Source: an uncultured Bacillota bacterium (GTDB taxonomy: Bacteria > Bacillota_I > Bacilli_A > RFN20 > CAG-288). Taken from it: a DNA stretch of 64,000 nt. The translations under genes were made by a program, and so were the position numbers. The notes under the pieces were generated by a model. That model made no database searches. It saw only the letters and a program-made list of their open reading frames with translations, and had not been told where the DNA came from. Positions 22,762-52,821 of this stretch are shown here, in pieces (positions within the stretch are counted from its first letter, which is position 1; every line of letters starts with the position of its first letter). Where the stretch lies: NCBI GenBank assembly GCA_949284445.1, contig CASDVP010000007.1:19107-83106 (forward strand). Reading direction: 5' to 3'.

Positions 22762-22786
22762 TGTTATCGATTTAAAAATGAAAAAG

Positions 22787-22830: not shown

Positions 22831-22948
22831 GTGTTTTTCTGATTGTACTAATTAAAAACATCATCAGTATGACTGGTGTTTGTGGCTTTATCGAAAGTAA
22901 TCAGATCGTTTTGCTATGTAAGATTTAAAGCTTTTGAAAATTAATAGG

Positions 22949-23128
22949 TTATTCTACTTCTTTTTCAAATACTATGACGCAGGCGTAAAGCCATTGAGAA
23001 AATTCAAATTGAACAAGTCTCCAACCTTCACTAGCTTTTTCATCAAGAACCTCTTGTAACTTGTTTGTTAGTGATTTCTTGGTTATAGCATAGCCGATTG
23101 TCACTGTTTCATATTGATATTTTTTCAT
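22949..23128 (-). CDS. Small DUF4177-like protein (59 aa). It is absent from the supplied ORF track, which only lists ORFs of 60 aa or more.
   Basis: Translation: MKKYQYETVTIGYAITKKSLTNKLQEVLDEKASEGWRLVQFEFSQWLYACVIVFEKEVE. The EGWRLV core and overall pattern match DUF4177. GGAGAT lies 7 nt upstream of the ATG. Confidence 0.55.
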   Translation of the reverse strand: MKKYQYETVTIGYAITKKSLTNKLQEVLDEKASEGWRLVQFEFSQWLYACVIVFEKEVE

Positions 23129-24273
23129 TTTATCATCTCCAATTATTTCATCTCATCTAATGTATTCTTGTTATTAACTAATCTAATAAAAGCATAAATT
23201 TGAATTGTATGACAACTGAGTACTTGTAGCCAAAAAAATTAGTGCACAAAGCTTATCCATATTATATTCGACGCACTTTTTCTCAACAATAGTAGCTGTT
23301 TATTGAGTTCTAATGACTATTACAATCAAAACATATTTATTTTGAAATATTGCGATAAAATAGGCACTGATTTTTGATTTTGTTGAATTTTCGGAAAATC
23401 ATTTTTTATACAAAAATGGCTCCTTCTTTTTGTTATCATTTTATGGGTATAGTCCAATACCAAAAAATGAAGCAAAAAGGTGGAAACCATGCTTAATTTT
23501 AGCAATTTTAATCGTGACGTAAAAGAGATGTTTTTAAGGTATGTTGGAAAAATTACAAAGTCAACAGAAATAACTAGAAAAAATAGGTAAATATGCTCTA
23601 GAGATATATCAAATAAAAATAGGGCTTCAGAATCTAATGCAACATATAAAAACACAACCACAAGTAAAGCGAAGAATAAGAAGAAAGATAGCTGTCCAAA
23701 TGCGACTTTTTTAAAATAATTCTCTATTTTTAAGTGGCAAAACATTAAAACTCAATTAGATTCATGCTTGTGAGATTTTTACAAAATGAATGAGTAAACT
23801 TTAAGGTGCCTTTTTCTAATAGAACCAAACGGCTAAAAATGTGGCAGTTCTAACCTGTTTTTATCTGTTAGTGAAATGCTAAAACTGAAAAAGCGCCCGA
23901 TTTTTCAAGCAAAAAGCTTTCATTTTGACACCATTGGTGTGTTTCAAAGTGTTAGTTATAAAATATCAAGCGGACTTCTTAACAGTTATTAATAATCCAG
24001 AGGAAAAAAGTTGAAGAATAGAATGTTGTAAAGTCTTTGAAGGACAATGTCTCTCAAAATGTCCTCTAAAAACCATTTAAGCTTTAATCAAGATGTGATT
24101 ATAAAACTTTACAGTTACAAATTCAAAACAACTATTACTCAAAAATGAATCTGTTGTACAAGATGCTCAAAAGTATAAAAATATCTGCAAAATTATGAAG
24201 AACTAGTTATATTAAGTTTGTTATAGATAAAGGTGGTCAGTAAAAAGATTGCGATTTTTTATATAGCACAATT

Positions 24274-24535
24274 GTGTTGTTGAAAAATGTCGGTAAAGAT
24301 ATCGGTAAAAATGACGGTAAATATGTCGGTGAAAATGTCGGAGAAAAAACTCTTGAAGAGCAGCTGATTAATGCAATTAAAAATAAGCCTAATATTTCTC
24401 AAAGAGAAATGGCTACGTTAATCGGAAATTCAACCAAAACTATTGAGAGAATAATCAAGTTTTCAAATAGAATAAGACGTATTGGTCCAAACAAAAGGCG
24501 GCTATTGGGAAATCATTGACAGAAAAGAAGATTAG
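24274..24535 (+). pseudogene. Frameshifted C-terminal fragment of an AlbA_2/'RecG C-terminal' HTH-domain protein (putative transcriptional regulator or ATP-binding protein family).
   Basis: The ORF encodes ...EEQLINAIKNKPNISQREMATLIGNSTKTIERIIKFSNRIRRIGPNK. After the A-run at about 24492 the +1 frame continues GGYWEIIDRKED*, which is the canonical family ending (..RIGP.KGGYWE.). No N-terminal domain ORF lies upstream. The fragment starts with VGKDIGKNDGKYVGENVGEK repeats, a typical linker in this family. Confidence 0.55.
24286..24345 (+). repeat. Five tandem 12-nt repeat units (GTCGGTAAAAAT-like) that encode the VGxx repeats.
   Basis: Units are atgtcggtaaag / atatcggtaaaa / atgacggtaaat / atgtcggtgaaa / atgtcggagaaa. 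Confidence 0.6.
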
Positions 24536-24595
24536 ATTACTGTTATTAAAAATATTCTAGATATCATTAGATTAAAGTGTTTTAAATAAATACTA

Positions 24596-24640
24596 AAAAA
24601 GCCCACTAGGCCTGTTGTAGCTTAATGGGCTTTTATAAGA
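24596..24640. terminator. Bidirectional rho-independent terminator; ends the hsp20 transcript on the minus strand.
   Basis: AAAAAAGCCCA...TGGGCTTTT: a stem flanked by an A-run and a T-run. Confidence 0.6.
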
Positions 24641-24644
24641 GGGA

Positions 24645-25124
24645 TTACTTGATCTCGATGTATTTATCTTCTTCTTGCTGAGGTTTATTTTTAGGGATAG
24701 TAATAGTTAAGACACCATTATTAGTAGAAGCGTTGATATCAGATTTCTTCACGCTGTTACCGACATAGAAGGAACGAGAATAGTTGCCACTAGAACGTTC
24801 ATAGTGGATATATTTACCTTCTCCTTCTTTGCTAGAATGATCGAATTTGGCTTGAACATTAAGATAACCGTTCTCTAATGAAATCTTGATATCTTTCTTA
24901 TCGACACCAGGGATTTCGACTTCGAGTTTATAGTCGTTGCCTTCATCTTTGATATCAGTTCTCATCAAGTCGAAGCTCTCGTCATCTCCATTGAAGAAAC
25001 TGTCATCGAATAAATTTAAGAAAGGATGGAAGAAGGATAAGCTAGAATGGTTTCTGTTTTGACGATCTTTACGATAGTTCTCGTTTTCATTTCTTCTTTG
25101 CATCTCATTTTTTTGTTCATTCAT
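24645..25124 (-). CDS. ibpA: Small heat shock protein of the Hsp20/alpha-crystallin family.
   Basis: Alpha-crystallin domain with a C-terminal GVLTITIPK motif. 159 aa. Confidence 0.9.
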   Translation of the reverse strand: MNEQKNEMQRRNENENYRKDRQNRNHSSLSFFHPFLNLFDDSFFNGDDESFDLMRTDIKDEGNDYKLEVEIPGVDKKDIKISLENGYLNVQAKFDHSSKEGEGKYIHYERSSGNYSRSFYVGNSVKKSDINASTNNGVLTITIPKNKPQQEEDKYIEIK

Positions 25125-25139
25125 AATTAATTGCCTCCG

Positions 25140-25166
25140 TTAGCACTCACTTTTCTTAAGTGCTAA
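25140..25166. promoter_or_regulatory. CIRCE operator (HrcA binding site), copy 1.
   Basis: TTAGCACTC-N9-AAGTGCTAA against the consensus TTAGCACTC-N9-GAGTGCTAA (one mismatch). It lies immediately upstream of the hsp20 RBS. Confidence 0.8.
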
Positions 25167-25184
25167 TTATAGTATAGTCAGAAA

Positions 25185-25211
25185 TTAGCACTTTTCAAGT
25201 GCAAGTGCTAA
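25185..25211. promoter_or_regulatory. CIRCE-like operator, copy 2.
   Basis: TTAGCACTT-N9-AAGTGCTAA, 45 nt from copy 1. Confidence 0.65.
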
Positions 25212-25396
25212 ATATTTTTAATCAATTTTGAAATATTGCGATATTTATCGACAAATTTATTAAAAAAATATTTTTGTAAAAATGACTTTCATAATTTTCT
25301 TAATGCGTTTTTATAGCCCTAGTGCTAGAATAATTACTAGTAATTTTTCCCCTCTATTCAGGTCTAAAATCGTGTTTTGATAATAAAGGGCTCAAT

Positions 25397-28300
25397 ATGG
25401 ATTCATTATTTGAAAGATTTTTAACAAAGGTTAAAATCAATGATTTAAAACCTTTCGAAGAAGGTTCTTTTGATAAGTTAATAAACGAAAAAGAAAACAA
25501 TTGTGTTGTCGCTAACATCGTCTTTCCCCACTATTTACCTTATAAGGCCTATCAAGATTTCTTCGATGCTATTTCTACTTTCACCGCCATCGGTGGTTTT
25601 AGCATGAAGATAACTTTTTCTTATAAAGATGAGAGATCTTATTTTCCACGTCTTTTAGAAGAATTCAAAGAAGCGATGAAATGTCAGCTTTTAGATGATG
25701 TTTACTTTTATGAGACTGAAAACAAAGTCCTGTTTTATTATCAAAAGACTGAACAAGCTAAACAGATCAGCGATGAGATCAGAAAGTTCAACGACTTTCT
25801 AGATTCCATCTCTTCATCTTATAAATTGATGATGCAAGAGAAGATCTATATGAGTGATGATTTTTCTAAGAAAAGAGATCAAGAATATCAAAAGACAGCT
25901 CTTGATACGATGAAGAACATCAAGATTCAAGAAGAGATCAATTCCACCTATCAGCCTTGTAAATTAAAAGATATCGAAAATTTTCCTAAAGTCATCGTTG
26001 CTGGCACTATTTTTAAAGTCGATGATCGCAAATCTAAAAAGATGACTCTCATCCGTTCACTAGAACTATATGATGGGACTGATTCTGTTAAGGTCACTAT
26101 CTTTGAAGGTAAAAAGATGACCTTAGAAGAGGTCTTAAAATATGATGTCGGAGTCAAAGTTAAGATCTATGGAAGAACTTTTTATGATTCATATTCTAGG
26201 GATGAGATCTCTATCGAAGTAGATAAGATTGAACAGATCGAAAACGATCCTTTAAGAATGGACACCAGTCCGGAAAAGAGAGTCGAATTACATTTACATA
26301 CTAAACTTTCAGCTTTAGATGGTTTAGCTGATTTTGCTTCTTATGCAGAAGCTGCTAAACGCTTTGGTCATAAAGCTTTAGCAGTCACCGATCACGGTGT
26401 TTGCCAAGCCTTTCCGAAAGCTCAAGCAGCAGGTAAGAAATACGGTCTTAAAGTTTTGTATGGAACGGAATTTTATATCGTTGATGACTCTCTCAGATAT
26501 ATTTTCAATCCCGATAAAACCCGTGTGTTAAATAAGTCAGACTATGTCATCTTCGACTTAGAGACGACCGGTTTATCAGCTAGATATGACCGCATCATCG
26601 AATTCGGTGCTGTCAAAATCGATTCAGCTGGTCAAGTCATAGATACGATTGACTTCTTCGTCAATCCTGATAGAAAGCTATCGAGGTTCTCTATCGAAGA
26701 ATCACATATCTCACAAGAACAGGTCGATCACGGTAAACCCATTAAAGAAGCTTTGAAGATGATCAAAGAATTCTTCGGAGATAGTGTTTTAGTCGCTCAT
26801 AACGCTAGCTTTGACTACGGTTTTTTAAATGAAGCTTTAAAGAATAACGGATTAGAAGGGATCAAGAATCCAGTCATAGATACTCTTCCTATCTCTATTT
26901 ATTTATATCCGGAAAAGAAACGTCATACTGAAGGAACCTTAGCCAGGGAATTAGATATTCAGTTTGATGAGATCTCCGCTCACCGAGCTAATTATGATGC
27001 TCTGATCTTATCTAAAATATTGCAGGTTTTTATCGCTAAACTGACTAAAGACAACGAGAAACTCACCCATGCTGATTTAGCTGACTTACCTGTCACTGAT
27101 CAGATGATCTTATGCATGCATCCTTATCATGCTACTTGTTATGTGAAGAACACCGCTGGTTTAAAAGACTTATATAAATTGATCTCTTTATCACAGATCA
27201 AATATATCTCTTCTAACGGCTATCCGCTTTTACCTAAGAGCGCACTGACTAAAGCGAGAGAGAACCTCATTATCGGTTCAGCCTGTTTAAACGGTGAAGT
27301 CTTTGAAGCAGCTATGACTAAATCCTCAGATGTCTTAAAAGAAGTTATGTCTTACTATGATTTCATCGAAGTTCAACCTCCTGCTAACTATTTATATTTG
27401 ATCAACAAAGGTCAGTTATCGAATATGGATGATGTCAAACATATCCTTTCAGATCTGATATCAGATGCTTTATCTATCAATAAACTTGTCTGTGCAACTG
27501 GTGATTGTCATTATTTAAATCCCGAAGATAAAATTTTGAGAGATGTTTATATCTCGGCTAGAGGCTTAAAAGGTGCTAGACATCCTCTTAACTTAGCTCC
27601 GTATGAAAATGCCAGTGAAGAAGTCAAAAAAGCATATTATAAGCATCCTTTTATCAATCCAGATCAGCACTTCAGAACCACTGATGAAATGTTAGAATGT
27701 TTTTCATTTTTAAACGATGATAAATTAGTGCATGATATCGTCATCACTAACACCAATAAAGTCGCTGATATGATCGCAGATGATATCAAGCCAGTTAGAG
27801 ATAAACTTTATCCACCTAAGATTGAAGGAAACGAACAGCTTTTGACTGACTTAGTTTTTAAAACTGCCAAGGAAAAGTATGGTGATCCATTACCGAAAGA
27901 GATTCAAGAACGTCTCGACACTGAATTACATGGTATCATCTCTAACGGTTATTCAGTCATTTACTGGATCTCATCCCTTTTAGTCCGTTGGTCTAATGAA
28001 CAAGGCTATATGATCGGTTCACGTGGCTCAGTCGGTTCCTCATTAGTCGCAACCATGTCTGGCATCACAGAAGTCAATCCTTTACCCCCACATTATATCT
28101 GCCCGAAATGTCATCATTTAGAATGGGTAGATCCTAATAAATACGGTTCTGGTTATGACCTTCCGGAAAAGATCTGTCCTGAATGCGGAAGCAAATTAAA
28201 GGGCGATGGTCAAAATATTCCTTTCGCGACTTTCTTAGGCTTCCATGCTGAAAAAGTGCCTGATATCGATTTGAACTTTCCATCTGATTTCCAAAGCATC

Positions 28301-32003: not shown

Positions 32004-33278
32004 ATGAAAAAAGTCACAAAAATCAGTTCCTTAGTCGCTCTCTCTTTATTGATGTTAGCCGGTTGTAATGGGGGGGGTGATTCCACCACAAAGCAAGATA
32101 ACTCCAAATACAACTGGACGATCACTGTTTCTTCACCAGTAGAACAAACTGCCTTTATTACTGAACAATGCAACAATTTCAAAGAAGAGAATGGTTATAC
32201 GAATGTCAAATTCAACTTTGTCAACTATCCAGAAGGTGAAGTCGATACCAAAGTCGCTGATTGGTCAGCGACCAGTGCACCTGATGTTTATGCGTTTGCA
32301 TCTGATAAGACTTTAAGCTTAGTACAAAAGGGTGCGTTAGCCCGTGTTCCTTCTAATTTCCAATCTCAAATGACGAAAGATATGACTTCTGGTGCTATCG
32401 ATGCCGGAAAATTAGGCGATAATATGTATGCATATCCCTATGCTGGTGATAACGGTTATTTCTTATATATCAACACTGACTTTGTCTCAGTAGACCAAGC
32501 TGCTAAGGTAGAAGATATCATCGCTGCTTGTGAGGAAAAAGGAGTCAAATTCGGTTATCCATTAGGCGAAGCTTTCTATTCGATGGCAATGTTGACCACC
32601 TTCGGTGCTTCTTATACTGTCAAGATGAACGATGATTACTCTAATGTCAGCAGTATTGAAGCTTCTTATGATACCGAGGATGGTTTACAAGCTGCTAAAG
32701 GCTTCCGTGATCTGATCAATAATCCTAACGTCATGACTGGTAATGCTAATGATGTGTTAAAAGCTCCTACTCAAGCTAACGGTTTAGGCGCTATTGTCGG
32801 TGGTTCTTGGAATGCTGCTGATTTTGAAGAAGCTGTCGGTAAAGATAAATTAGTCGCTTTGAAGATGCCGACTATCACTGTTGATAATGAGACTAAGACG
32901 CTTCGTTCGTTCTTGGGTTATAAATTATATGGTGTTAATCCTCAAGTGAGTAAAGAAGATACTGCTAGATTAGCTTTCGATCACTCTTTAGCCAATTATT
33001 TAGTCGGTGCTAAAGTTCAAGAGAATCGCTTTGATACTTTCTCAACCGCTCCTACCAATACGACCGTCGCTAAAATGTCTAAAGTCACTAATAACCAATA
33101 TGTCAAAGCTATCAATGATCAAGCTAATGATGCTATTGCTCAAACTATTGTCCCTCAAGGTCTTTGGGATTCTCCTAAGGCTTTATACGATGGTATCAAA
33201 GCAGGAACGATCAGCACTGACCAACAATTACAAGAAGCTTTGACTGCTTTGAATACTGCTGTAGAAACTTCCAAATAA
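32004..33278 (+). CDS. Lipoprotein sugar ABC-transporter substrate-binding protein (maltose/maltodextrin-binding-like).
   Basis: Lipobox LLMLAGC, then GGG encoded by a poly-G tract. The fold is MalE-like (cluster B SBP) and the gene sits directly upstream of two sugar permease genes. Confidence 0.8.
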   Translation: MKKVTKISSLVALSLLMLAGCNGGGDSTTKQDNSKYNWTITVSSPVEQTAFITEQCNNFKEENGYTNVKFNFVNYPEGEVDTKVADWSATSAPDVYAFASDKTLSLVQKGALARVPSNFQSQMTKDMTSGAIDAGKLGDNMYAYPYAGDNGYFLYINTDFVSVDQAAKVEDIIAACEEKGVKFGYPLGEAFYSMAMLTTFGASYTVKMNDDYSNVSSIEASYDTEDGLQAAKGFRDLINNPNVMTGNANDVLKAPTQANGLGAIVGGSWNAADFEEAVGKDKLVALKMPTITVDNETKTLRSFLGYKLYGVNPQVSKEDTARLAFDHSLANYLVGAKVQENRFDTFSTAPTNTTVAKMSKVTNNQYVKAINDQANDAIAQTIVPQGLWDSPKALYDGIKAGTISTDQQLQEALTALNTAVETSK

Positions 33279-40633: not shown

Positions 40634-41422
40634 ATGAAGAAAACTTATCTATTAGTCAGTTTATTTTTACTTTTATCTTCTTGTAACAATGATATCCGAC
40701 AAGATATCTCCGATTTTTTGAGCGGATGCAGCTTAGAAAAAGCTAAAGGATTCACTAAAACCATCTCTTTGAATTATTCATCTATTTTAGAGACGAGAAA
40801 AGAACAAGAAGAGTTAGGAAAGAGCGATATTTTATTCGTCGCTGATTTGACTAGCACTGAAGATTACTTTTCCTATGTTAAAGAAACCTTTTCAGGAGAA
40901 AACCATCTCTTTGATCAAGATAGTCAGATGTATGTGAATCTGACTGTTGCTGAAACCGAATTTGATGAAAGCAACGATGTTTACACCACTACTGTATATA
41001 AAGAAGGTTATAAAGATCTAAACAATCCTGAAGAGATCAGCATCTATCAAGAGGTGACTGAAACACCTAAAAGCCTCATTCAATCTCGAATCGATAAGAT
41101 TTTTTATTCCTCTAATCAAATAGATGGTGTCTCTGGTGGTCTTTATTATGCTGATTTCTTTATCTCAATAGCTAAATTCGATATGTATATCGATATTAAA
41201 GAAGATAAATTGTTCTATCATCTCGACGATTATCCTTTTAAAAATGATAAAGAAGAAGGACTGGTCAACGAGAAGATAATCATGAACGAAGTCGGCATGC
41301 TTGAATCATTAGAATTGACTAATGATAACTTTACGACTTCAGAAAGAAATAAGACTCTGATAAATGTCGTTTATAATGTTGATATAGATAGAAATCAGTA
41401 TGATTTAAGCGATAAAAAGTAA
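40634..41422 (+). CDS. Lipoprotein, hypothetical.
   Basis: Lipobox LLLSSCNND; starts 3 nt after the previous lipoprotein gene. Confidence 0.6.
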   Translation: MKKTYLLVSLFLLLSSCNNDIRQDISDFLSGCSLEKAKGFTKTISLNYSSILETRKEQEELGKSDILFVADLTSTEDYFSYVKETFSGENHLFDQDSQMYVNLTVAETEFDESNDVYTTTVYKEGYKDLNNPEEISIYQEVTETPKSLIQSRIDKIFYSSNQIDGVSGGLYYADFFISIAKFDMYIDIKEDKLFYHLDDYPFKNDKEEGLVNEKIIMNEVGMLESLELTNDNFTTSERNKTLINVVYNVDIDRNQYDLSDKK

Positions 41423-41450
41423 TCGCTTTTATCATTTCATATTTTATAAA

Positions 41451-41490: not shown

Positions 41491-41640
41491 TAAATCCCTT
41501 TAAAAATACTACAGATTGTCAAAAGTGCATTCTTTATATAATTTAATTATTTTTAAGTTGACTGTGCCCAATCATTGATTTAGAATAATCAAGAAAGGGG
41601 TTTCAACGCTTATTCAAACCATGGAAAGGAAATTATTTAC

Positions 41641-42857
41641 ATGAAGAAAAAAGCATTAGGCTTAGTCGCTTTATCGCTAGTATTCGGTATGTCATTTGCT
41701 ACTTCATTGATCTCTTGTACCAAAACTAGTTCGACAGTTGGGGGGGTGGTCAAACTGAAAAGATCTTAGAATCCATCGCAGTCACTAAAGCACCCACCAA
41801 AACCACTTATTTAGAAGGAGAAGAATTCGATAAATCAGGTATGGAAGTCACTGCTACTTACAGTGATGATTCCACTGAAAAGGTTAACAATTATCGCATC
41901 AAAGTCGCACCAGATGGTCCTTTAACTCCGAGTGATACATCCGTTACGCTCACTTATGAAGATAAATCTACTACTCAAGCTATCACTGTCAATGCGATCG
42001 TTTGCACCAAATTAGAGATCACTAAAGATCCTATCAGCACCGTCTTCGCACGTGGTGGCACCTATGACTTCACCGGCTTAGAAGTCACAGCTACTATCGA
42101 ACATCAGGATGAACCTAAAGTATTGAGCACTGATGAATACACCTTAACAGTCGGCGGTAAAACAATCAAAGATGGTGATACTGTTGAATTAGATGGTGCA
42201 GAAGCCTCTTATCCTGTCACTGTCAGTTATAAGAATCAAACTGATACCTTCGATATCAGAGTCATCAACGGTTATAAGATTGAAGGCGAAAATATCCTCT
42301 ATACTGAACCAACCGATGAAGATAATAATTTCGTAAGATTAAAACTATCTGAAGACTCAGGCTATTTAACTGAACCGAGTAAAAATGGTACCATTCGTGC
42401 TGTATCTGGAGTGGCTGATGCTGAATATGCAAGTGGAAAAGCATACTTAGGTGACTTAAAGAATGGTAACGTCATTGAGTTCTATTTCAGAAGTGAAGTT
42501 GCTACTACTGCTGATATTTCTATTTCCGCCGCAAGCGGTTATCTAGTTAAAGATGATGGTAACTGGACTCCTGAAGAAATGGGCGATATGCAGTTTAATA
42601 AAACTGTCACAGTGACACTTAATGGTACTGTAGCTAATGTTCCTGATGATGTCATCCTTGAAGGTGGAACTCCTGAAGATGTCGGTGGTGTCAATGCTAT
42701 GCTTTGGACTAACTGGAAGACAGTTAACTTTGGAACAATGGAAGTTAAAGAAGGACTCAATGTTGTTAAGTTTGTAGTTGCTAGTGAATATACAAATTGC
42801 CACAATGGCAGCTGTGCGTTCAACTTAGACTATTTATCTGTTGATTTTGGAGCTTAA
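41641..42857 (+). pseudogene. Surface lipoprotein gene split by a frame change at a poly-G tract. A 42-codon lipoprotein signal peptide ORF (41641-41769) is followed by a 338-aa ORF (41841..42857) that encodes two Ig-like repeats and a C-terminal beta-sandwich domain. It is either a phase-variable gene or a frameshift pseudogene.
   Basis: The signal peptide MKKKALGLVALSLVFGMSFATSLISC has a lipobox. A G7 run sits at about 41740-41746. Downstream of the tract, in the frame of the 338-aa ORF, the sequence is open back to the tract and encodes ...GGQTEKILESIAVTKAPTKTTYLEGEEFDKSGMEVTATY..., which is a complete Ig-like repeat. One extra G would fuse the two ORFs. The C-terminal domain resembles that of the 1576..2247 lipoprotein. 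Confidence 0.6.
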
Positions 42858-42881: not shown

Positions 42882-45842
42882 ATGAAATTAAAACTCAATA
42901 AACTTACGCCTGGTAGGATAGCTCAACTCATCGGTGCTGGTGTATTATCAATCGCCTTTATAGCTGGCACATGTGTAGCAGCTTATTATGCACCTATGAT
43001 CACCACGTTCTTGTGTGGTACTGGTGTCAGTTTCGAAACTGAAGAATTCAAACAATCTGCTAAATTATCTGATCAACTTTGTCAAGAAGTTGCTGAAGAA
43101 GGTGTTGTTCTTCTTAAAAATAAAGACAATGCTTTACCAATCAATACCGACAAAGTGAATATCTTCGGTTGGAGAGCTACTGATCAAGGCTTCCATCTCT
43201 CTGGTATTGGTAGTGGTGCTTCTACTATCAATGAGAATAAGAAGGTCACTTTGTTAGATGCATTTGAAAAAGAACATATCGACTATAATAGCGAATTGAT
43301 TGATTTCTATAATAGCTATGATTCTTTTAATGGTGGATATGGCACTGGCAATGGTGAACGTATGACCTTCAGAGAGCCATCTCTAAGCGATTATAGTGAT
43401 GAGTTATGGGCAAATGCCATTGACTATTCTGATACTGCAATTGTTGTTCTTTCTAGAGTCTCTGGTGAAAACGTCGACGAAATTCCGATGTATCAGAATA
43501 AAGCTCATCAATCTCGTGATAATGATAGACATTATCTTGAACTCACTACTGAAGAAGAAGCTTTGCTTCAAAATTGTCGTGAGAATTTTGATAAAGTCAT
43601 CGTCTTATTAAACACATCCAATCAAATGGAATTAGGTTTCTTAGACGAATATGATATCGATGCCTGCTTGTTAGTCGGTCTCACTGGTCAATCTGGTGCT
43701 TTAGCTATTCCTCGTATCTTAAAAGGTGATATCAATCCTTCAGGTCGTACAACTGATATTTATCCATATGATTTGACTTCTGATCCGACATTTAATAATT
43801 ATGCTAGAAGTGGAGATCATGTCACCTATGTAGAAGATATCTATTATGGTTATAAATACTATGAGACAAGATATGCTAACGACGAAAATGGTTATAAAGC
43901 TGCTATCCAATTCCCGTTCGGATATGGTTTATCATATACTGATTTTGACTGGAATCTCGATAGTATGACTATCGATGGTGAAGAATATGATGTCTCTGGT
44001 TATAATGATACAAAGCCGATTGAATTAAGCAAAGATACAGAAGTGGAACTTTCTTTCAGCTGTCATAACAGCGGTGCTGTTGATGGTGCTGATGTCATTC
44101 AACTCTATGTCAATGCGCCATACACTAAAGGTGAAATTGAAAAACCAGTCACAAAGTTAGTCGATTTTGCTAAGTCAACCAGTGTTCCTGCTGGTAAATC
44201 TCAAACTGAGATCACTATGTCATTCACCGCATATGATTTAGCTTCTTATGACGCTTATGATGCTAATGATAATGATGCTGCAACTTGGGAATTAGATGCT
44301 GGTGAATATTCTCTTAACTTTATGGATAACTCTCATGAAGCTAAGACGATGACATCAGATGGCAATGGTATCAATTCTTTAAAGTTCGAAGTCAAGAATG
44401 ATATCGTCTATGATACCGATCCGGTAACCGGTAATGAAGTCACCAATCGTTTCACTGGTGCAGATGCAATCGCTGGAGTTCCTATCGATGGAAGTACTGT
44501 TTTCAGTCAACCAGTCGATTATTTATCTAGAGCTGATAATTTTGCTAACTTACCTAAAGCTCAAGGACAGCCTTCTAATTCTAATGAAGTTTCTAAAGCT
44601 AATAATTATAGTAACACCGGTTTTGATCAAACAGAGATGCCTACTCTCGATCAAAATAATGGTCTCTATCTCCACACTCGTAAAGATGGTAGTAAGGCTA
44701 CATTAGAAGAATTAAATGGCAAGAACTTCACTGAAACAGGTCCTCTTGCATATAACGATGAACTCATCAATGAAATCGGTGCTAATTATGATTCTGAAAA
44801 GCTTGATCAACTTGTCGATCAATTAAGTGCCAATGATGCTTGTAAAATAGTTGAGGATTCCGGCTTTGGTTCTCCAGCTGTTGAATCTATCGGTAAAGCT
44901 CGTGCTTATGACTTTGATGGTCCTGCTGGATTCAATAGTAACACCCAGACCGGTGTCACTTCAGGTGAGTGGACTGCTTATCCTAATCAAACGTTAATCG
45001 GTCAAACCTTCTCTAAACGTCTTGCAAAACAGATCGGCTTATCAATGGGTGCTGAAGGAAAAAATACTGATTTACAAGGATGGTATGCTCCTGTTGTCAA
45101 TCTCCATCGTTCACCATTCAATGGTAGAAACTATGAGATGTATTCAGAAGATCCAGTCTTAAGTGGTAAATTAGGTGCTCAGACTATCGATGGTGCTAAG
45201 GCTAATGGTGTCTATTGCTTCCTTAAACACTTTGGTCCGACAGAACCTGGTCAAAACTCTCGTAATCAAAACTCTTGGATGACTGAACAAAACTTACGTG
45301 AAAATTACTTCAAAGCTTTCGAACTTGCTGTCAAAGAAGGTGGATGTAATGCTGTCATGTCTTCATTCAGTTCTTTAGGTGGTGTTTGGACTGGTGCTAA
45401 CAACGGTATCTTCGTTGATATCTTAAGAAATGAATGGGGATTCAGAGGTTGTGTCTTAACTGACTGGTGCGATGGCGGCGGTAACATGAATTGCCACGTT
45501 GGTGTCAGAGGTGGAAATGACATCTGGCTCAATCCTAATGTCGGTAATAACAGGAGTAAATTAGACAGAAGCAATCCTACTGAAGTCTATTGCGCAAAGC
45601 AAGCTGCTAAGAACGTTATCTACACTATTTGTAACACTAGATACTATTCACAAACCTATGATCATTCTCAAGATGAAATGGTCTTCCCGATCGGTGAAGC
45701 AAGTATCAATGTTCCATTTGCTTGGTGGATTCCAACTTTAGCTGCTATTGATGTCGTGATGATCGGTGGTTCTCTTGTCTGGGCTGGTTTCACACTCTTC
45801 TATCATAAAAAAGAGAAAGAAACTGAACAAGAACAGAACTAG
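42882..45842 (+). CDS. Glycoside hydrolase family 3, with a domain-permuted order (alpha/beta sandwich, then Fn3-like, then catalytic barrel) and predicted TM anchors at both termini.
   Basis: N-terminal signal-anchor (IAQLIGAGVLSIAFIAGTCVAAYY). GH3 alpha/beta-domain motif EEGVVLLKNKDNALPI. Catalytic barrel near the C-terminus (KHFGPTEPGQ...; GFRGCVLTDW). C-terminal TM segment (WWIPTLAAIDVVMIGGSLVWAGFTLFY) with a charged tail. 986 aa. Confidence 0.85.
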   Translation: MKLKLNKLTPGRIAQLIGAGVLSIAFIAGTCVAAYYAPMITTFLCGTGVSFETEEFKQSAKLSDQLCQEVAEEGVVLLKNKDNALPINTDKVNIFGWRATDQGFHLSGIGSGASTINENKKVTLLDAFEKEHIDYNSELIDFYNSYDSFNGGYGTGNGERMTFREPSLSDYSDELWANAIDYSDTAIVVLSRVSGENVDEIPMYQNKAHQSRDNDRHYLELTTEEEALLQNCRENFDKVIVLLNTSNQMELGFLDEYDIDACLLVGLTGQSGALAIPRILKGDINPSGRTTDIYPYDLTSDPTFNNYARSGDHVTYVEDIYYGYKYYETRYANDENGYKAAIQFPFGYGLSYTDFDWNLDSMTIDGEEYDVSGYNDTKPIELSKDTEVELSFSCHNSGAVDGADVIQLYVNAPYTKGEIEKPVTKLVDFAKSTSVPAGKSQTEITMSFTAYDLASYDAYDANDNDAATWELDAGEYSLNFMDNSHEAKTMTSDGNGINSLKFEVKNDIVYDTDPVTGNEVTNRFTGADAIAGVPIDGSTVFSQPVDYLSRADNFANLPKAQGQPSNSNEVSKANNYSNTGFDQTEMPTLDQNNGLYLHTRKDGSKATLEELNGKNFTETGPLAYNDELINEIGANYDSEKLDQLVDQLSANDACKIVEDSGFGSPAVESIGKARAYDFDGPAGFNSNTQTGVTSGEWTAYPNQTLIGQTFSKRLAKQIGLSMGAEGKNTDLQGWYAPVVNLHRSPFNGRNYEMYSEDPVLSGKLGAQTIDGAKANGVYCFLKHFGPTEPGQNSRNQNSWMTEQNLRENYFKAFELAVKEGGCNAVMSSFSSLGGVWTGANNGIFVDILRNEWGFRGCVLTDWCDGGGNMNCHVGVRGGNDIWLNPNVGNNRSKLDRSNPTEVYCAKQAAKNVIYTICNTRYYSQTYDHSQDEMVFPIGEASINVPFAWWIPTLAAIDVVMIGGSLVWAGFTLFYHKKEKETEQEQN

Positions 45843-48529: not shown

Positions 48530-51385
48530 TTAAGCGTTGTCTTCTGGTTGATCTTTCTTGGATTTCTTGTTGAGGATGTACATCAACCAGCAATAACCAA
48601 TTCCACCTAATGATAAGACGAAGACAAGACAATCGACAGTGATCAAGACAGGTCTCCACGGGAATGTCCAGGCTGTACTGGCGATCAGATCACCAGAATC
48701 ATTGACTTTATATGATTCATCGACTGCCCAGGAATTAGTGATCGCATAACAGATGTTTTTAGCAGCGCGATGGATGTAATATTGCATGGTTTTATCGTTT
48801 TGATAATCAGTGAGTTGCCAGTTGCTTTGATTGGTGTTTAACCAAATATCTGTGCCAGCCCATAATCCGGAAACGATATCTTGATAGAACATTGCAGAGA
48901 CACTGGCTTGGTCGGTGATGACCATTCCTTTAAATCCCCATTCATCTCTGAGCAATTCGGTCATCGCACCTCTATGAGCACCGATCCAACGAGAACCGAT
49001 TCTATTCATAGCAGCCATCAAGGCATTGGTTCCACCTTCGACTGCACCTTCAAAGCCTTTGGTATAGATTTCACGGATAGCTTGTTCATTAGCGAAGATC
49101 GCACCACCATAACGATTGGTTTCCTGATCGTTTAAGAAGAAGTGTTTGGTATAAGTGATGACACCTTTGGATCTCAAGCCTTCGACTTCACTTTTTGCCA
49201 TCTCATATGAGAGATGGGCATCTTCAGAATAATATTCAAAATTACGACCGGAATATGGTGAACGATGGATATTAGCACCAGGGCCATAGACACCAGCGAC
49301 ATTGATTGAGATGGTATCTTGACCAAATAAGACACCTAAATCATGGATCAGTTCAACGTTCCAAGTGGAAGCCATCAACACTTCAGCCGGCCAAGCCATT
49401 GAACTGACACCGCTGACTAATGTTCCAGAAACACCGCTAGGTCCATCCTTATCTTGAGTAGGTGGCAAACCGATTTTGTCGATTTGAATGGTAGAATAAC
49501 CGCCTAATCTGATGAGTCTAGTCATCTGTGAATAAGATAATTGATTGACTAAGTCATCCCATTTTGGATCATCATAAGGAACACCGATTAAATCTTTGAC
49601 TGAATATGAAGTAGATGTGCTGTTTTGAGTGAATGTGAAATTATTGATCGCTTCATCATCTTCAGTATCAGTGTTTACATCGTAAAATGGTAAGTCATCA
49701 AGTAGATCTTGGCTAGCATTCCATGAGCCATTAGAATAAGTTGTTGGATATGTACCTCTCCAATCACTTCTGGATAAATATTTGTATTCAGATTCAGAAT
49801 AATAGTTTATATCTACATCTTCAAAGAGGTTTGTGATCTCTGTACCTGTGTCTGAGGTGCTATAAGTAGTTGAATCAGTGCTTTCTTGGTTGAATGCTAC
49901 TTTTGCAAAAGAGCTGTTACCATCATAGTCCATGCCATCAGCAGTGGTCTTTCCCTTCAAAGCGAGAATATTGTTTAAAGCATCATGAGCATTTCTACCG
50001 ACGGATAAATAATAATCACCTGGAGTCAAGACATAAGTTTTAGCTGTTTGATAATCATAAGAGGTCAAATCTTTTTTATCGACGGTGATAGTGACATCGG
50101 TTTCAGCATCTTTAGCTAATTCAATAGTTTTGCTGAACCCGACTAATTCGACAGATGAAGTTTCTACTCCACCTTTTGTATATGGCTTTTGCGCATATAG
50201 TTCAACAACATCTTTTCCGGCTCTATCACCGGTGTTTTTGACATGAACGGTGACATCAAATGATTTTTTATCATCGCTTTCAGTCACTGAGAAGTTAGAC
50301 CATTCAAAAGTTGTATAGCTAAGACCATATCCGAATGGATATTGGACCTCAGAAGTATAGTCATAATCACCAGCATTTCCTTGTCCGAGGACTCTATCTT
50401 CGTATCTGGTCTCATAATATCTATAACCGACATAGATACCTTCACCATAGACTAAGTATTTATTTCCTCTGTCGACATTGCTGTTAGTGATGTTGTAATC
50501 TCCGAAATTTTGGATTGAAGGAGCGCTTTTTGAATCATAGGCATAAGTATCGACTAATCTTCCTGAAGGATTGACATCGCCTTTTAAAATATTAGGAATC
50601 GCATACATACCTTCTTGACCAACACCGCCAATCCAAAGGGCAGCTTTGATGTTTTCGTATGCAGGATCTTCTAAGACATCTAGTTCGATCGGATTATTAG
50701 TGTTGATGACAAGAATGACTTTGTCAAAATTATCGCAAGCTAATTTTAATAAGTCACGTTCGTTTTGATCGATTTGTAAATAAGTATATCCAGTGTTTAA
50801 ATCAGCAGTCGGAATATCGGCGCTCTCTCCACCGCTTCTTCCTAAAGAGACAACGGCTACATCATCGTCTTTCAAGGAACTTATCACTTTATCAGTGTAG
50901 ACGTTTTGTGGAACTTCATTGACAGCAAAGTCACCCTTTCCAGATTGATCGGGAGTCTTTTTACGATAACCTTTGCCAGCGCCAGAAGTGTAGAAATTCC
51001 ACAATGTTTCATTGACTTTATAGCCTTCTCGTTCAAATGCGCTCTTTAAAGTCGGTGCATTAGCTGTATCAACTGATCCTGAACCAGAGCCACCATAGAC
51101 GAAATCAACTGAATTCTGACCTAATAATGCAACATTAGTCTCAGCAGCTGCTAATGGTAAAGCATTATCTTCATTCTTTAATAAGACAGTGCCTTCATCA
51201 GCGACTTCTTCACACAATTTTTTGGATGCTTCACTAGCAGTATAATCACTTCTAGTGAGATAAACATCGAGCAGGTTTTGATATTGATAAGCAAATATTG
51301 TTCCTACAATCAAAGCAGCAGATAAGATTCCACCTATTGAAGTTGTGATGATCGCTGCTTTCAAAGAGACTTTTCTCTTTTTCAT
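48530..51385 (-). CDS. Glycoside hydrolase family 3, paralog of the 42882..45842 gene. Same permuted, doubly membrane-anchored architecture.
   Basis: N-terminal TM (AAIITTSIGGILSAALIVGTIFAY). EEGTVLLKNEDNALPL. Catalytic barrel near the C-terminus (KHFFLNDQETNR...GFKGMVITDQ). C-terminal TM (VLITVDCLVFVLSLGGIGYCWLMYIL). 951 aa. Confidence 0.85.
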   Translation of the reverse strand: MKKRKVSLKAAIITTSIGGILSAALIVGTIFAYQYQNLLDVYLTRSDYTASEASKKLCEEVADEGTVLLKNEDNALPLAAAETNVALLGQNSVDFVYGGSGSGSVDTANAPTLKSAFEREGYKVNETLWNFYTSGAGKGYRKKTPDQSGKGDFAVNEVPQNVYTDKVISSLKDDDVAVVSLGRSGGESADIPTADLNTGYTYLQIDQNERDLLKLACDNFDKVILVINTNNPIELDVLEDPAYENIKAALWIGGVGQEGMYAIPNILKGDVNPSGRLVDTYAYDSKSAPSIQNFGDYNITNSNVDRGNKYLVYGEGIYVGYRYYETRYEDRVLGQGNAGDYDYTSEVQYPFGYGLSYTTFEWSNFSVTESDDKKSFDVTVHVKNTGDRAGKDVVELYAQKPYTKGGVETSSVELVGFSKTIELAKDAETDVTITVDKKDLTSYDYQTAKTYVLTPGDYYLSVGRNAHDALNNILALKGKTTADGMDYDGNSSFAKVAFNQESTDSTTYSTSDTGTEITNLFEDVDINYYSESEYKYLSRSDWRGTYPTTYSNGSWNASQDLLDDLPFYDVNTDTEDDEAINNFTFTQNSTSTSYSVKDLIGVPYDDPKWDDLVNQLSYSQMTRLIRLGGYSTIQIDKIGLPPTQDKDGPSGVSGTLVSGVSSMAWPAEVLMASTWNVELIHDLGVLFGQDTISINVAGVYGPGANIHRSPYSGRNFEYYSEDAHLSYEMAKSEVEGLRSKGVITYTKHFFLNDQETNRYGGAIFANEQAIREIYTKGFEGAVEGGTNALMAAMNRIGSRWIGAHRGAMTELLRDEWGFKGMVITDQASVSAMFYQDIVSGLWAGTDIWLNTNQSNWQLTDYQNDKTMQYYIHRAAKNICYAITNSWAVDESYKVNDSGDLIASTAWTFPWRPVLITVDCLVFVLSLGGIGYCWLMYILNKKSKKDQPEDNA

Positions 51386-51410: not shown

Positions 51411-52496
51411 TTAAGCGTTAGGATCAGTTAAAGACATTTCAGCAGCACCATCTTTGAAGTAGCAGACATATTCTTGACCATAAGCTTTGATGACATCTTC
51501 TTTGCCTTGAGCCATGTTCTTTTCACCTTGGGTTTTAGCAGGTAATTCTGTCGGATAAACTTGATTTTTATCTCCAGTATTGATCTGAATATTAAAACCA
51601 CCTGCTTTAGAATAGGAATTTAATAAGACATCACTAGCAGTGCCTAAAGTGGTCTTGGTATAGCCATCAACCGGTGCGTCTTGAGTATAGGTGCCTTGAT
51701 TATAAACAATGGTGGTTGCTAATATTTGCGAATATCCGTATTGAACATTAGTTGAGAAATATTCGTATTTATCATCAGTGTAAGTGATGACTATATCAAT
51801 TTTAGCGTCATAAGAACCTTCGCCCATGCTTCCTGGCACCGCAGTTTTATCAGTGATTCTGACATCTTTAAAATCACTTGTTAATAATTTAGAGACATCA
51901 CCAGAAGCGGTGGAAACAGTCGTTTTGACTTTGCTACCATCTTCATTTGATTCCTCTGTTTCATTCGGATCAGTGAAAGAGAAGACGTTTTTACTATCTT
52001 CGGCATAAATTTTAAAACCGGTAGCATAATCGCTGTTAAGAACATCTTCTTTGTTCTGAGCCATGTTCTTTTCACCTTGGGTTTTAGCAGGTAATTCAAC
52101 TGGGTAAACCTGATCCTTATCAGCGGTGTTTATAGCTATAGAAAAACCACCGGCGGTAGAATAAGAATTGATGAGGAATTCACTCGCTTTATTGAGATCA
52201 TATCCAGTGACACCATCTTCAGAGGCTCCTTTAGTATAAGTGCCGTAACGAATACTGGCAGTTGAAGCCATGACCATGCCATAGCCATAATTGACTGAAG
52301 TGTAGATCATCTCATAAAGACCACCTTCGTAGAATTGAACTTGATAAGCATCAGCAACCCATCCACCATAAGCGTTGGTGTAGGTTTCTGAATAGGCATA
52401 AGAATCGATCAATTCAGCTTTTTGTGTTGTGTTTCCACAGGCTGTAAGACCGCTTACAGCTAAGAGAGATAATAAGGGTAATAATACTTTTTTCAT
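51411..52496 (-). CDS. Surface lipoprotein with an internal tandem duplication, immediately upstream of and co-oriented with the GH3 gene.
   Basis: GGAGG lies 8 nt before the ATG of MKKVLLPLLSLLAVSGLTACG (lipobox); the track ORF starts 12 codons earlier. Two repeats of about 180 aa each end ...AGGF.I.INT.DK.QVYP.ELPAKTQGEKNMAQ.KEDV. The DNA repeat gttcttttcaccttgggttttagcaggtaattc occurs near 51519 and 52063. Confidence 0.65.
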   Translation of the reverse strand: MKKVLLPLLSLLAVSGLTACGNTTQKAELIDSYAYSETYTNAYGGWVADAYQVQFYEGGLYEMIYTSVNYGYGMVMASTASIRYGTYTKGASEDGVTGYDLNKASEFLINSYSTAGGFSIAINTADKDQVYPVELPAKTQGEKNMAQNKEDVLNSDYATGFKIYAEDSKNVFSFTDPNETEESNEDGSKVKTTVSTASGDVSKLLTSDFKDVRITDKTAVPGSMGEGSYDAKIDIVITYTDDKYEYFSTNVQYGYSQILATTIVYNQGTYTQDAPVDGYTKTTLGTASDVLLNSYSKAGGFNIQINTGDKNQVYPTELPAKTQGEKNMAQGKEDVIKAYGQEYVCYFKDGAAEMSLTDPNA

Positions 52497-52821
52497 ACAT
52501 GTTTCCTCCTTGTTAAGAAACCACAAAAACATTAGTTTAAAAACGCTTACATTTCAAATAATTGGCATAAAAGTATAATTTTTAGGCACAGAATTCTTTG
52601 ACTATGCTGATTTGATCACTATTTTGTTTGTAGAAAAAAAGGGCTTTCATTTACATTTGACTTTATTTTCAAAATCGGTGGTTATGAGAAGGCGAGAATT
52701 TTATGGTATAAGTGATATGAGGTAAAATTTAATAAAAAAACATTTACTTTAAAACGTTGTTAGTTATATAATACTCAATGCTGTTTTCAGCATATTTTAG
52801 ATTGATACGGAGGATAAGCAT

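What the first reader, a model, noticed from the sequence alone, without database searches (positions are those of the whole stretch)
41641..41850. Poly-G tract right after the lipobox Cys splits a lipoprotein gene: candidate slipped-strand phase variation
A run of about 7 G at 41740-41746 lies 6 codons after the lipobox Cys. Upstream, the frame encodes a complete lipoprotein signal peptide and then hits a stop 7 codons after the tract. Downstream, the frame of the 338-aa ORF is open back to the tract and encodes a complete Ig-like repeat (GGQTEKILESIAVTKAPTKTTYLEGEEFDKSGM-EVTATY...). One additional G joins the two frames into a single 380-aa lipoprotein. This is the classic layout of a contingency locus for a surface antigen, though it could equally be a fixed frameshift or a sequencing error at a homopolymer. 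My count of G residues is approximate.
Basis: seen in the sequence. Interest (0 to 1): 0.7.

Follow-up and report, generated by a model that had tools for sequence, protein, structure and literature searches.

The report
Poly-G on/off switch in lipoprotein gene
A run of G bases just after the membrane-anchor signal of a sugar-binding surface lipoprotein gene in an uncultured gut bacterium changes length between otherwise identical strains, turning the gene on or off; this is a solid new example of a well-known bacterial switch.

Summary
G7 at 41740-41746 splits a lipoprotein gene into a 42-aa signal-peptide ORF (41641-41769) and a 338-aa remnant (41841-42857). One extra G gives a 405-aa protein (not 380), and the tract starts 8 codons after the lipobox Cys (not 6).

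Sequencing error is excluded. The exact predicted G8 protein exists in other metagenome assemblies. Two of them (21,218 and 12,870 nt) differ from the window by 0 mismatches and one gap, the tract G. Across 24 assemblies of three sub-lineages the tract is G5, G6, G7, G8 or G9 (11 ON, 13 OFF). Both states occur on each of two group-A haplotypes. G6, G7 and G8 occur on one identical lineage-2 gene sequence. The downstream frame is intact in 24/24, and dN/dS is about 0.08 at dS about 1.3. A second G8 in the same window (32070-32077, ABC solute-binding lipoprotein) is in frame in 11/11 and serves as an internal control.

The product has a lipid anchor, a disordered tether, two Ig-like domains and a CBM6/35-like domain. 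It is encoded 25 nt upstream of a GH3 glycosidase.

Verdict: a slipped-strand phase-variable (contingency) locus, and a new member of a known kind. Switching within a clonal population and the protein phenotype are not shown.

The parts
41558..41586 (+). Promoter-like site (TTGACT-17-TAGAAT) upstream of the lipoprotein gene
   Evidence: 10 of 12 consensus match. This is weak evidence, because such sites are no more frequent here than in shuffles. A terminator-like hairpin at 41407-41428 closes the upstream gene.
41641..41718 (+). Lipoprotein signal peptide up to the lipobox Cys (MKKKALGLVALSLVFGMSFATSLIS|C, Cys at codon 26)
   Evidence: from direct reading of the sequence. There is a K-rich n-region, a hydrophobic h-region and an L-I-S-C lipobox. 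The Cys is invariant in the alignment of 10 homologues.
41740..41746 (+). Poly-G tract, G7 in this window (OFF); the hypermutable switch
   Evidence: The allelic series G5, G6, G7, G8 and G9 is seen across 24 assemblies. G5, G8 and G11 are in frame, and all other lengths stop within 3-7 codons.
41641..41769 (+). OFF-state product: a 42-aa pre-lipoprotein ending ...TVGGVVKLKRS* (stop at 41767-41769)
41730..42857 (+). Downstream reading frame of the gene body. It is open from 41730 and the mechanical ORF call is 41841-42857 (338 aa). It encodes Big_3 Ig-like domain 1 (about 41793-41990), a second Ig-like domain, and a CBM6/35-like beta-sandwich (about 42261-42854).
   Evidence: frame open back to 41730. 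(Pfam Big_3, 33.1 bits against a cut-off of 21.2, residues 52-117 of the fused protein, so the ATG at 41841, residue 68, lies inside the domain). (AlphaFold model with pLDDT 79; Foldseek hits to CBM35 2w1w and 2w3j, CBM6 2cdp, and LigA Ig domains). (no internal stop in 24 of 24 alleles; dN/dS about 0.08).
42882..45842 (+). Downstream GH3 glycosidase gene (986 aa, N-terminal membrane anchor), 25 nt after the lipoprotein stop; probably co-transcribed
   Evidence: Glyco_hydro_3_C, Fn3-like, Glyco_hydro_3. (no terminator-like site between the two genes). Synteny is conserved in every related locus.
32070..32077 (+). Second poly-G tract (G8, in frame, LAGC|NGGGD) in the ABC solute-binding lipoprotein gene 32004-33278; used as an internal control
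   Evidence: SBP_bac_8. In frame in 11 of 11 assemblies: six keep an uninterrupted G8 and five carry synonymous interruptions, GGGGGTGGT or GGAGGGGGA.

Best explanation
This is a simple-sequence-repeat contingency locus. During replication the poly-G run in codons 34-36 of the lipoprotein gene gains or loses G residues by slipped-strand mispairing.

Lengths of 5, 8 or 11 G keep the signal peptide in frame with the body of the protein. The cell then makes a 404-406-aa surface lipoprotein with a lipid anchor, a flexible tether of about 15 residues, two Ig-like spacer domains and a CBM6/35-like carbohydrate-binding module. Any other length ends translation 3-7 codons after the tract. Only a 37-43-aa pre-lipopeptide is then encoded and the binding protein is absent. 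The window carries the OFF length, G7.

The gene sits 25 nt upstream of a membrane-anchored GH3 glycosidase. The switch therefore probably toggles the glycan-capture component of a small two-gene sugar-harvesting unit. It may also affect GH3 expression through polarity.

Shown here: the tract, the frames, tract-length polymorphism on identical backgrounds, conservation of the tract across lineages, purifying selection on the gene body, and the domain architecture.

Inferred: the slippage mechanism, reversibility within a lineage, surface exposure and sugar binding, co-transcription with GH3, and the selective agent (phage, host antibody or substrate availability).
For: 1. An ON allele exists on the same background. 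The exact predicted 405-aa protein is in the collection as P0122. L007 (21,218 nt) and L008 (12,870 nt) differ from the window by 0 mismatches and 1 gap, the tract G.
2. The change is recurrent. Haplotypes A1 and A2 differ by 68 SNPs over 21 kb, and each carries both G7 and G8 with 0 mismatches between the states. Group B has G7, G8 and G9. Lineage 2 has G5, G6, G7 and G8 plus one lesion at the tract edge. One lineage-2 gene haplotype (0 mismatches over 1,205 nt) carries G6, G7 and G8.
3. OFF alleles are not decaying. The downstream frame is intact in 24 of 24 alleles. dN/dS is 0.075-0.08 between lineages at dS about 1.3.
4. The tract is maintained against codon bias. GGG is 5.2% of Gly codons, and another lipoprotein in the window encodes its GGG linker as GGT GGT GGT. 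The tract is uninterrupted in 24 of 24 alleles although its flanks have diverged.
5. There is an internal control. The SBP G8 in the same assemblies never changes length while uninterrupted, and it is in frame in 11 of 11. OFF counts are 13/24 against 0/11, Fisher p = 0.002, indicative only because the samples are related.
6. The relative rate is high. Zero substitutions in 21.2 kb against one tract change puts tract mutability at roughly 7,000 times the per-base substitution rate or more. This is a crude bound. It lies within the 100-10,000-fold range given for SSR loci in PMC11868660.
7. Recoding signals are absent. The RNA 3' of the tract is less structured than shuffles, z = +1.38.
Against: All sequences are assembly consensus sequences from metagenomes. 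No read-level data were available, so heterogeneity within one population, the switching rate and true reversibility are not shown.

Samples are not phylogenetically independent. At least four pairs appear to be the same sample assembled twice.

Recombination could in principle move a G7 or G8 allele between haplotypes, in place of repeated slippage.

The data do not separate an adaptive contingency locus from a mutational hot spot in a conditionally dispensable gene that is repeatedly lost and purged.

Carbohydrate binding rests on fold similarity alone. There is no Pfam CBM hit, and TM-scores against the whole multi-domain query are low.

The promoter and operon calls are weak consensus matches.
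Confidence: 0.85

Rival explanations
1. This is a mutational hot spot without adaptive switching. The poly-G is simply unstable, perhaps in a lineage with weak mismatch repair. The lipoprotein is dispensable in many hosts, so loss-of-function alleles arise again and again and persist for a while. They are dead ends, not one phase of a reversible switch.
For: OFF alleles are common, 13 of 24. The other G8 tract in an apparently needed gene is never OFF, and in 5 of 11 assemblies it has been stabilised by synonymous interruptions. That shows selection can act on such tracts in either direction. No within-population or directional data exist.
Against: No OFF allele carries a single extra substitution or stop relative to its ON partner. 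Long-term dN/dS is about 0.08. The tract is uninterrupted in 24 of 24 alleles across dS about 1.3, although GGG is a rare codon. ON and OFF are interleaved on several backgrounds. If OFF were a dead end, that pattern would need many very recent independent losses and no older ones.
Confidence: 0.1
2. This is a homopolymer error from sequencing or assembly. The true sequence is in frame, and G7 is an artefact.
For: Homopolymers are a classic source of indel errors. The window alone cannot exclude this.
Against: G7 is reproduced in the window and in three further assemblies from at least two projects. Identical sequences recovered from ENA submitter assemblies and from Logan agree on tract length: L006 = L009, L007 = L008, L013 = L014, L053 = L054. 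The G8 in the SBP gene of the same assemblies never varies in length. G5, G6 and G9 alleles also exist.
Confidence: 0.02
3. This is programmed recoding. The G7 allele is the functional form, and the full-length protein is made by -1 ribosomal frameshifting or by transcriptional slippage on the G run.
For: A G run is a potential slippery site. Low-level slippage by RNA polymerase or the ribosome cannot be excluded, and it could make the OFF state leaky.
Against: Genuine in-frame alleles (G5, G8) exist on the same backgrounds. OFF alleles fall in both wrong frames (G6 and G9 against G7), which no single recoding event could rescue. There is no stimulatory RNA structure 3' of the tract, z = +1.38. 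In frame 0 the run does not form a canonical X XXY YYZ heptamer (direct reading of the sequence).
Confidence: 0.03

Closest known systems
Campylobacter jejuni polyG/polyC contingency loci (29 loci with tracts of 7 or more in NCTC11168; PMC4965091, abstract seen)
   Same: Both are low-GC genomes in which G/C runs of 7 or more are rare. In both, intragenic tracts cause ON/OFF frameshifts in genes for surface structures. Tract lengths of 7-9 or more vary between closely related isolates.
   Different: The organism here is a monoderm, uncultured gut Bacilli lineage and not a pathogen. The target is a lipoprotein with a carbohydrate-binding module in a glycosidase operon, whereas the C. jejuni targets are mainly capsule, LOS or flagellar modification genes. 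The genome-wide number of such tracts here is unknown; two are seen in 64 kb.
Mycoplasma fermentans P78 phase-variable lipoprotein of an ABC transporter operon (Theiss & Wise 1997, J Bacteriol 179:4013; title cited in PMC3335035; details from my own knowledge)
   Same: In both, a localized frameshift in a coding-region homopolymer near the 5' end of a surface lipoprotein gene linked to nutrient uptake gives selective high-frequency ON/OFF switching. The window's second tract, in the ABC solute-binding lipoprotein, has the same layout.
   Different: As I recall, P78 uses a poly(A) tract, whereas this locus uses poly-G. P78 switching was shown in clonal cultures. Here it is inferred from comparison across samples, and the ABC-transporter SBP tract itself shows no OFF allele (0 of 11).
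Bifidobacterium breve sortase-dependent pilus G-tract switch (PMC9187656)
   Same: Both involve a Gram-positive gut commensal with an intragenic G-tract. Replication slippage sets ON/OFF for a surface structure, and equivalent tracts are conserved across related species.
   Different: B. breve has a high-GC genome and the target is a pilus subunit. That switch was demonstrated by error-corrected deep sequencing and in mice, which has not been done here.
Listeria monocytogenes inlA 5' poly(A) homopolymeric tract (PMC2831843)
   Same: Both are Bacilli-class organisms with a 5'-proximal homopolymer in a surface-protein gene. Frameshifts arose independently more than once in natural populations. 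Related lineages carry a stabilised, interrupted version of the tract (A2GA4), which parallels the interrupted SBP tracts here.
   Different: inlA uses poly(A) of 6-7 with low measured rates (about 5e-7). Here the tract is poly-G of 5-9, and the ON:OFF ratio among natural assemblies is far more balanced.

Membership tests
SSR (homopolymeric-tract) phase-variable / contingency locus | A long mononucleotide repeat (7 or more for G/C) within the reading frame or promoter, longer than composition predicts | tested here: met
   G7 at 41740-41746. The expected number of G or C runs of 7 or more is 0.245 per 64 kb, and there are no G6 or C6 runs in the window.
SSR (homopolymeric-tract) phase-variable / contingency locus | Tract-length polymorphism among very closely related genomes that toggles the reading frame | tested here: met
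   G7 and G8 occur on backgrounds with 0 mismatches over 21.2 kb and 12.9 kb. Lengths G5 to G9 are seen across 24 assemblies, 11 ON and 13 OFF.
SSR (homopolymeric-tract) phase-variable / contingency locus | Recurrent, reversible switching (both directions within a lineage) | tested here: inconclusive
   Recurrence is shown. Two group-A haplotypes each have both states, and one lineage-2 gene haplotype has G6, G7 and G8. Direction and true reversion cannot be read from consensus assemblies.
SSR (homopolymeric-tract) phase-variable / contingency locus | Switching rate orders of magnitude above the basal mutation rate in a clonal population; a mix of lengths within a population | not testable with these tools
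   No reads and no culture are available. There is only a crude comparative bound of about 7,000-fold or more relative to per-base substitution.
SSR (homopolymeric-tract) phase-variable / contingency locus | Gene remains functional (no degeneration in OFF alleles; purifying selection) | tested here: met
   The downstream frame is intact in 24 of 24 alleles. dN/dS is 0.075-0.08 between lineages.
Bacterial lipoprotein (Lgt/Lsp substrate) | N-terminal signal peptide with a positively charged n-region, a hydrophobic core and a lipobox [LVI][ASTVI][GAS]C | tested here: met
   MKKKALGLVALSLVFGMSFATSLIS|C. The Cys is invariant in 10 homologues. No dedicated predictor was available, and lipidation itself was not tested.
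Big_3 (PF07523) Ig-like domain proteins | Pfam match above the gathering score | tested here: met
   33.1 bits against a cut-off of 21.2, at residues 52-117 of the repaired protein. The domain spans the ATG at 41841.
CBM6/CBM35 carbohydrate-binding modules | Beta-sandwich fold of the family, plus sequence-family membership and sugar-binding residues | tested here: inconclusive
   Fold similarity to 2w1w and 2w3j (CBM35, TMt 0.55-0.59) and to 2cdp (CBM6). There is no Pfam CBM hit, and ligand-binding residues were not examined.
Programmed -1 ribosomal frameshift site | X XXY YYZ slippery heptamer in frame, plus a downstream stimulatory RNA structure, with the frameshifted form conserved | tested here: not met
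   There is no canonical heptamer in frame 0 (direct reading). The 3' RNA is less stable than shuffles, z = +1.38. In-frame alleles are common, and OFF alleles fall in both wrong frames.

The most novel reading that the evidence does not exclude
Poly-G tracts placed just after the lipobox may form a lineage-wide 'lipoprotein phasome' in these uncultured gut Bacilli. Such a system would stochastically toggle components of carbohydrate-harvesting units. The Big_3/CBM lipoprotein would be the freely switching member. The maltodextrin-type SBP tract would be a constrained or stabilised member. In a distant human-gut relative (L018), a G9 at the junction of the LytTR regulator and kinase genes, next to the homologous lipoprotein-GH3 pair, would be a regulatory version of the same strategy. 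This would be a bet-hedging defence against phages or host IgA that target glycan-capture proteins. If so, SSR-based multi-locus phase variation would be a normal feature of non-pathogenic gut commensals and could be read directly from public metagenomes.
Probability: 0.2. Interest if true: 0.65.

Novelty: new member of a known kind. Interest (0 to 1): 0.45.

Why it matters
SSR-mediated phase variation is documented mostly in pathogens. The 2025 review PMC11868660 asks whether that restriction is real or a database bias. It also notes that wider surveys across the microbial phylogeny would inform evolutionary explanations.

This locus is a clean, well-controlled case in an uncultured gut Bacilli lineage known only from MAGs. 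The switched gene belongs to a glycan-utilisation unit and is not a classical virulence factor.

The case also shows that ON and OFF alleles of one strain can be recovered by comparing public metagenome assemblies. A same-length tract in the same genome serves as an internal error control.

There is a practical point for annotation. The 338-aa 'hypothetical protein' called in many of these assemblies, and seen as a mechanical ORF in this window, is the OFF remnant of a 404-406-aa lipoprotein. It should be annotated as a phase-variable gene, and not as a separate ORF or a pseudogene.

Tried and rejected
1. A DNA pattern scan of JGI metagenome contigs with the degenerate upstream flank ACYMAAACTAGTTCRWCAGTTGG found 0 hits, so it added no alleles.
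2. The lipoprotein next to the second GH3 gene (51411-52532, minus strand) is not a paralogue (BLASTP E = 0.53). This is therefore not a duplicated variable family.
3. I looked for a frameshift-stimulating RNA structure 3' of the tract and found none.
4. I tried to place the organism more precisely with EF-Ts. The only named relatives are 'MAG: Bacilli bacterium' at about 72% identity or less, with no cultured relative among the best 120 hits. The closest reference genome is titled 'uncultured Bacilli bacterium isolate E21__bin313'.
5. Whole-locus identity in lineage 2 gave no pairs that differ only at the tract. The identical-background result there holds only at gene level, 1,205 nt.
6. I checked whether the split hsdM in L012 and the split permease in L059 sit at repeats. 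Neither check was conclusive, and I dropped both.
7. Theiss & Wise 1997 could not be opened. Its details are given from my own knowledge.
8. The first Markov simulation timed out, so I replaced it with an analytic expectation.

Full report
**1. Observation**

The window has an exact G7 at 41740-41746, followed by T and GG. The ORF at 41641-41769 encodes MKKKALGLVALSLVFGMSFATSLISCTKTSSTVGGVVKLKRS*. This is a typical lipoprotein signal peptide with an L-I-S-C lipobox, and the Cys is at codon 26.

The 338-aa ORF at 41841-42857 lies in frame +2 relative to it. That frame is open back only to 41730, 10 nt before the tract. The two frames therefore overlap only in the 40 nt that span the tract.

Adding one G (or removing two) yields a single ORF of 405 (or 404) aa. 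The G count and the stop 7 codons after the tract are correct.

Pfam places a Big_3 domain at residues 52-117 of the repaired protein. The ATG at 41841, residue 68, therefore lies inside a domain, and the 338-aa ORF is a remnant and not a gene in its own right.

**2. Is it more than chance?**

The window is 35% GC. Its G/C runs are G4 x22, G5 x3, C4 x12, C5 x2, then nothing until one G7 and one G8. From dinucleotide frequencies, 0.245 runs of 7 or more are expected, so P(>=2) = 0.026.

The G8 at 32070-32077 also lies directly after a lipobox Cys (LAGC|NGGGD). It sits in an SBP_bac_8 solute-binding lipoprotein gene at the head of a maltodextrin-type ABC operon. The chance that both runs fall within 30 nt 3' of one of the seven lipobox Cys codons, on the coding strand, is about 3e-6.

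GGG is only 5.2% of Gly codons. A third lipoprotein, at 4613, encodes its Gly-Gly-Gly linker as GGT GGT GGT. A Gly linker therefore does not require a homopolymer.

**3. Comparative evidence**

A homologue search with the repaired protein found intact relatives of 404-406 aa at 98% and 85% identity. An exact-sequence look-up found the precise 405-aa protein predicted from this window as P0122. It also found 338-, 372- and 373-aa truncated members in both 90% clusters.

I fetched the DNA for these. With the window, that gives 24 sequences:

| Lineage | Sequence context | OFF alleles | ON alleles |
|---|---|---|---|
| Group A (the window's strain type) | GTT-Gn-TGGTCAA | G7 x4 | G8 x4 |
| Group B (about 99% nucleotide identity) | GTT-Gn-TCAA | G7 x2, G9 x1 | G8 x1 |
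| Lineage 2 (about 81% nucleotide identity, a sister species) | GTTGGTACA-Gn-TGAA | G6 x1, G7 x4, one G8 with a TG>A lesion at the tract edge | G5 x1, G8 x5 |

In total, 11 are ON and 13 are OFF.

L007 (21,218 nt) and L008 (12,870 nt) differ from the window by 0 mismatches and a single gap, the tract G.

Group A contains two haplotypes that differ by 68 SNPs over 21 kb, and each has both states. In A1, the window and L002 are OFF, and L007 and L008 are ON. In A2, L001 and L003 are OFF, and L006 and L009 are ON. There are 0 mismatches between the states in either haplotype.

In lineage 2, one gene haplotype (0 mismatches over 1,205 nt with the tract masked) carries G6, G7 and G8. By parsimony, at least about eight independent tract changes are needed among about 19-20 independent assemblies. 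This count is my inference.

**4. Excluding artefact and pseudogene**

Four pairs are identical over 12.8-15.1 kb, including tract length: L006/L009, L007/L008, L013/L014 and L053/L054. They probably come from the same samples assembled by the submitter and by Logan, which I infer from the adjacent accession numbers.

The G8 in the SBP gene is present in the same assemblies. It never changes length while uninterrupted (6 of 6), and it is in frame in 11 of 11. OFF counts are 13/24 against 0/11, Fisher p = 0.002. This is indicative only, because the samples are related.

In five assemblies the SBP tract carries synonymous interruptions, GGGGGTGGT or GGAGGGGGA. These resemble the stabilised A2GA4 form of the Listeria inlA tract (PMC2831843). 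Tract 1 is uninterrupted in 24 of 24 alleles.

No OFF allele has any additional lesion. The downstream frame is intact in 24 of 24 alleles. dN/dS between the lineages is 0.075-0.08 at dS about 1.3 (the coincidence of equal values for two pairs was checked). The gene is therefore maintained by purifying selection. The rare-codon tract has also survived a divergence at which most synonymous sites have changed.

**5. Recoding rival**

OFF alleles occur in both wrong frames (G6 and G9 against G7). In-frame alleles are common. The 104 nt 3' of the tract fold less stably than shuffles, z = +1.38. Leaky slippage by RNA polymerase or the ribosome cannot be excluded, but it is not the main mechanism.

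**6. What the gene encodes**

The AlphaFold model has a mean pLDDT of 79. Residues 1-37 are disordered and correspond to the signal peptide and tether. Two Ig-like beta-sandwich domains and a C-terminal beta-sandwich follow.

Foldseek against the PDB returns LigA Ig-like domains. For the C-terminal part it returns CBM35 (2w1w, 2w3j, TMt 0.55-0.59) and CBM6 (2cdp), along with CBM-bearing glycosidases. There is no Pfam CBM hit, so carbohydrate binding is an inference from the fold.

The gene ends 25 nt before a 986-aa membrane-anchored GH3 glycosidase, and no terminator-like site lies between them. This lipoprotein-GH3 pair is conserved in all relatives, down to homologues at 35% identity such as L018. 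A LytTR two-component system and a second lipoprotein-GH3 pair lie next to it in the window.

**7. Organism**

The closest reference genome is titled 'MAG: uncultured Bacilli bacterium isolate E21__bin313'. The only named EF-Ts relatives are MAG 'Bacilli bacterium' entries at about 72% identity or less. The window uses the standard genetic code, encodes PolC and has 35% GC. More distant homologues come from rumen, rabbit, horse and human (Hadza) gut MAGs. This is an uncultured gut Bacilli lineage.

**8. Mechanism and comparison with known systems**

The best explanation is slipped-strand mispairing at a coding-region poly-G tract. It gives ON (G5, G8, G11) and OFF (all other lengths) expression of a surface lipoprotein, which makes this a contingency locus in the sense used for Campylobacter polyG loci (PMC4965091).

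Other close precedents are:
- the Mycoplasma fermentans P78 lipoprotein (Theiss & Wise 1997, cited in PMC3335035);
- the Bifidobacterium breve pilus G-tracts (PMC9187656);
- Listeria inlA (PMC2831843).

The crude rate bound is at least about 7,000 times the per-base substitution rate. It falls within the 100-10,000-fold range quoted for SSR loci (PMC11868660).

Three things differ from the precedents: the host (an uncultured, non-pathogenic gut Bacilli lineage), the target (a CBM-type lipoprotein of a glycosidase operon), and the kind of evidence (comparison across metagenomes, with a same-genome control tract).

**9. Limits**

There are no read-level data, no clonal population, no measurement of rate or direction, and no protein data. 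An adaptive switch cannot be fully separated from a hot spot in a conditionally dispensable gene. The selective agent is unknown.

**10. Verdict**

This is a new member of a known kind. Confidence in the phase-variation reading is about 0.85, and interest is 0.45.

Noticed in passing
window 32070-32077 (gene 32004-33278): A second poly-G tract (G8) lies directly after the lipobox Cys of the ABC solute-binding lipoprotein of a maltodextrin-type operon. It is in frame in all 11 assemblies seen. Five of them carry synonymous interruptions (GGGGGTGGT or GGAGGGGGA), as if the tract had been stabilised in a gene that cannot be lost.
   Followed up: yes
L018 1515-1523 (Hadza human-gut Bacilli MAG CAKPJO010000009.1): A G9 lies at the 3' end of a LytTR response-regulator gene, 12 nt upstream of the kinase start codon. 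This two-component system sits immediately upstream of the homologous Big_3/CBM lipoprotein and GH3 pair. G9 gives a 267-aa read-through regulator, while G8 would give the normal 236 aa. It may be a regulatory phase switch for the same system, but only one sequence was seen.
   Followed up: partly
L015 10106-10113 (CALVXU010000030.1): This OFF allele was produced by a TG>A change (net -1 nt) at the 3' edge of a G8 tract and not by a change in tract length. It is a different lesion at the same hot spot.
   Followed up: partly
window 41747-41749 vs L004/L010: The window's strain type has an extra GGT (Gly) codon after the tract (G_n-TGGT-CAA) compared with group B (G_n-T-CAA). This is an in-frame 3-nt indel in the tether, in addition to the tract-length variation.
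   Followed up: partly
window 42882-45842, 48530-51385 (minus strand) and 87-1589: There are two complete GH3 glycosidases with an N-terminal membrane anchor and a permuted domain order (GH3 C-terminal domain, Fn3-like, then GH3 N-terminal domain). Each follows a lipoprotein gene, and they flank a LytTR two-component system. A further ORF with a GH3 match lies at the window's start. The two lipoproteins are unrelated (E = 0.53).
   Followed up: partly
L012 15169-16898 (GCA_964323775.1): In this lineage-2 genome a type I restriction-modification system replaces the two-component system downstream of the GH3 gene. Its hsdM is called as two ORFs (250 + 326 aa). No obvious repeat was seen at the junction.
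   Followed up: partly
L059 1555-3079; L055 6041-6751: The MalF-like permease is split into 416 + 106 aa in L059, against 526 aa elsewhere. The histidine kinase is truncated to 236 aa in L055, against 361 aa. The causes were not resolved.
   Followed up: partly
window 51411-52532 (minus strand): The lipoprotein upstream of the second GH3 gene is called as 373 aa or 361 aa in different assemblies. There is an upstream ATG 12 codons before the MKKVLL signal peptide, so the shorter form is probably the real start.
   Followed up: no
window 12594-12667 (minus strand) and 22761-25397: Rfam found a single tRNA at 12594-12667. The 2.6-kb stretch before polC has only two small ORFs and no Rfam match, and it was not examined.
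   Followed up: no
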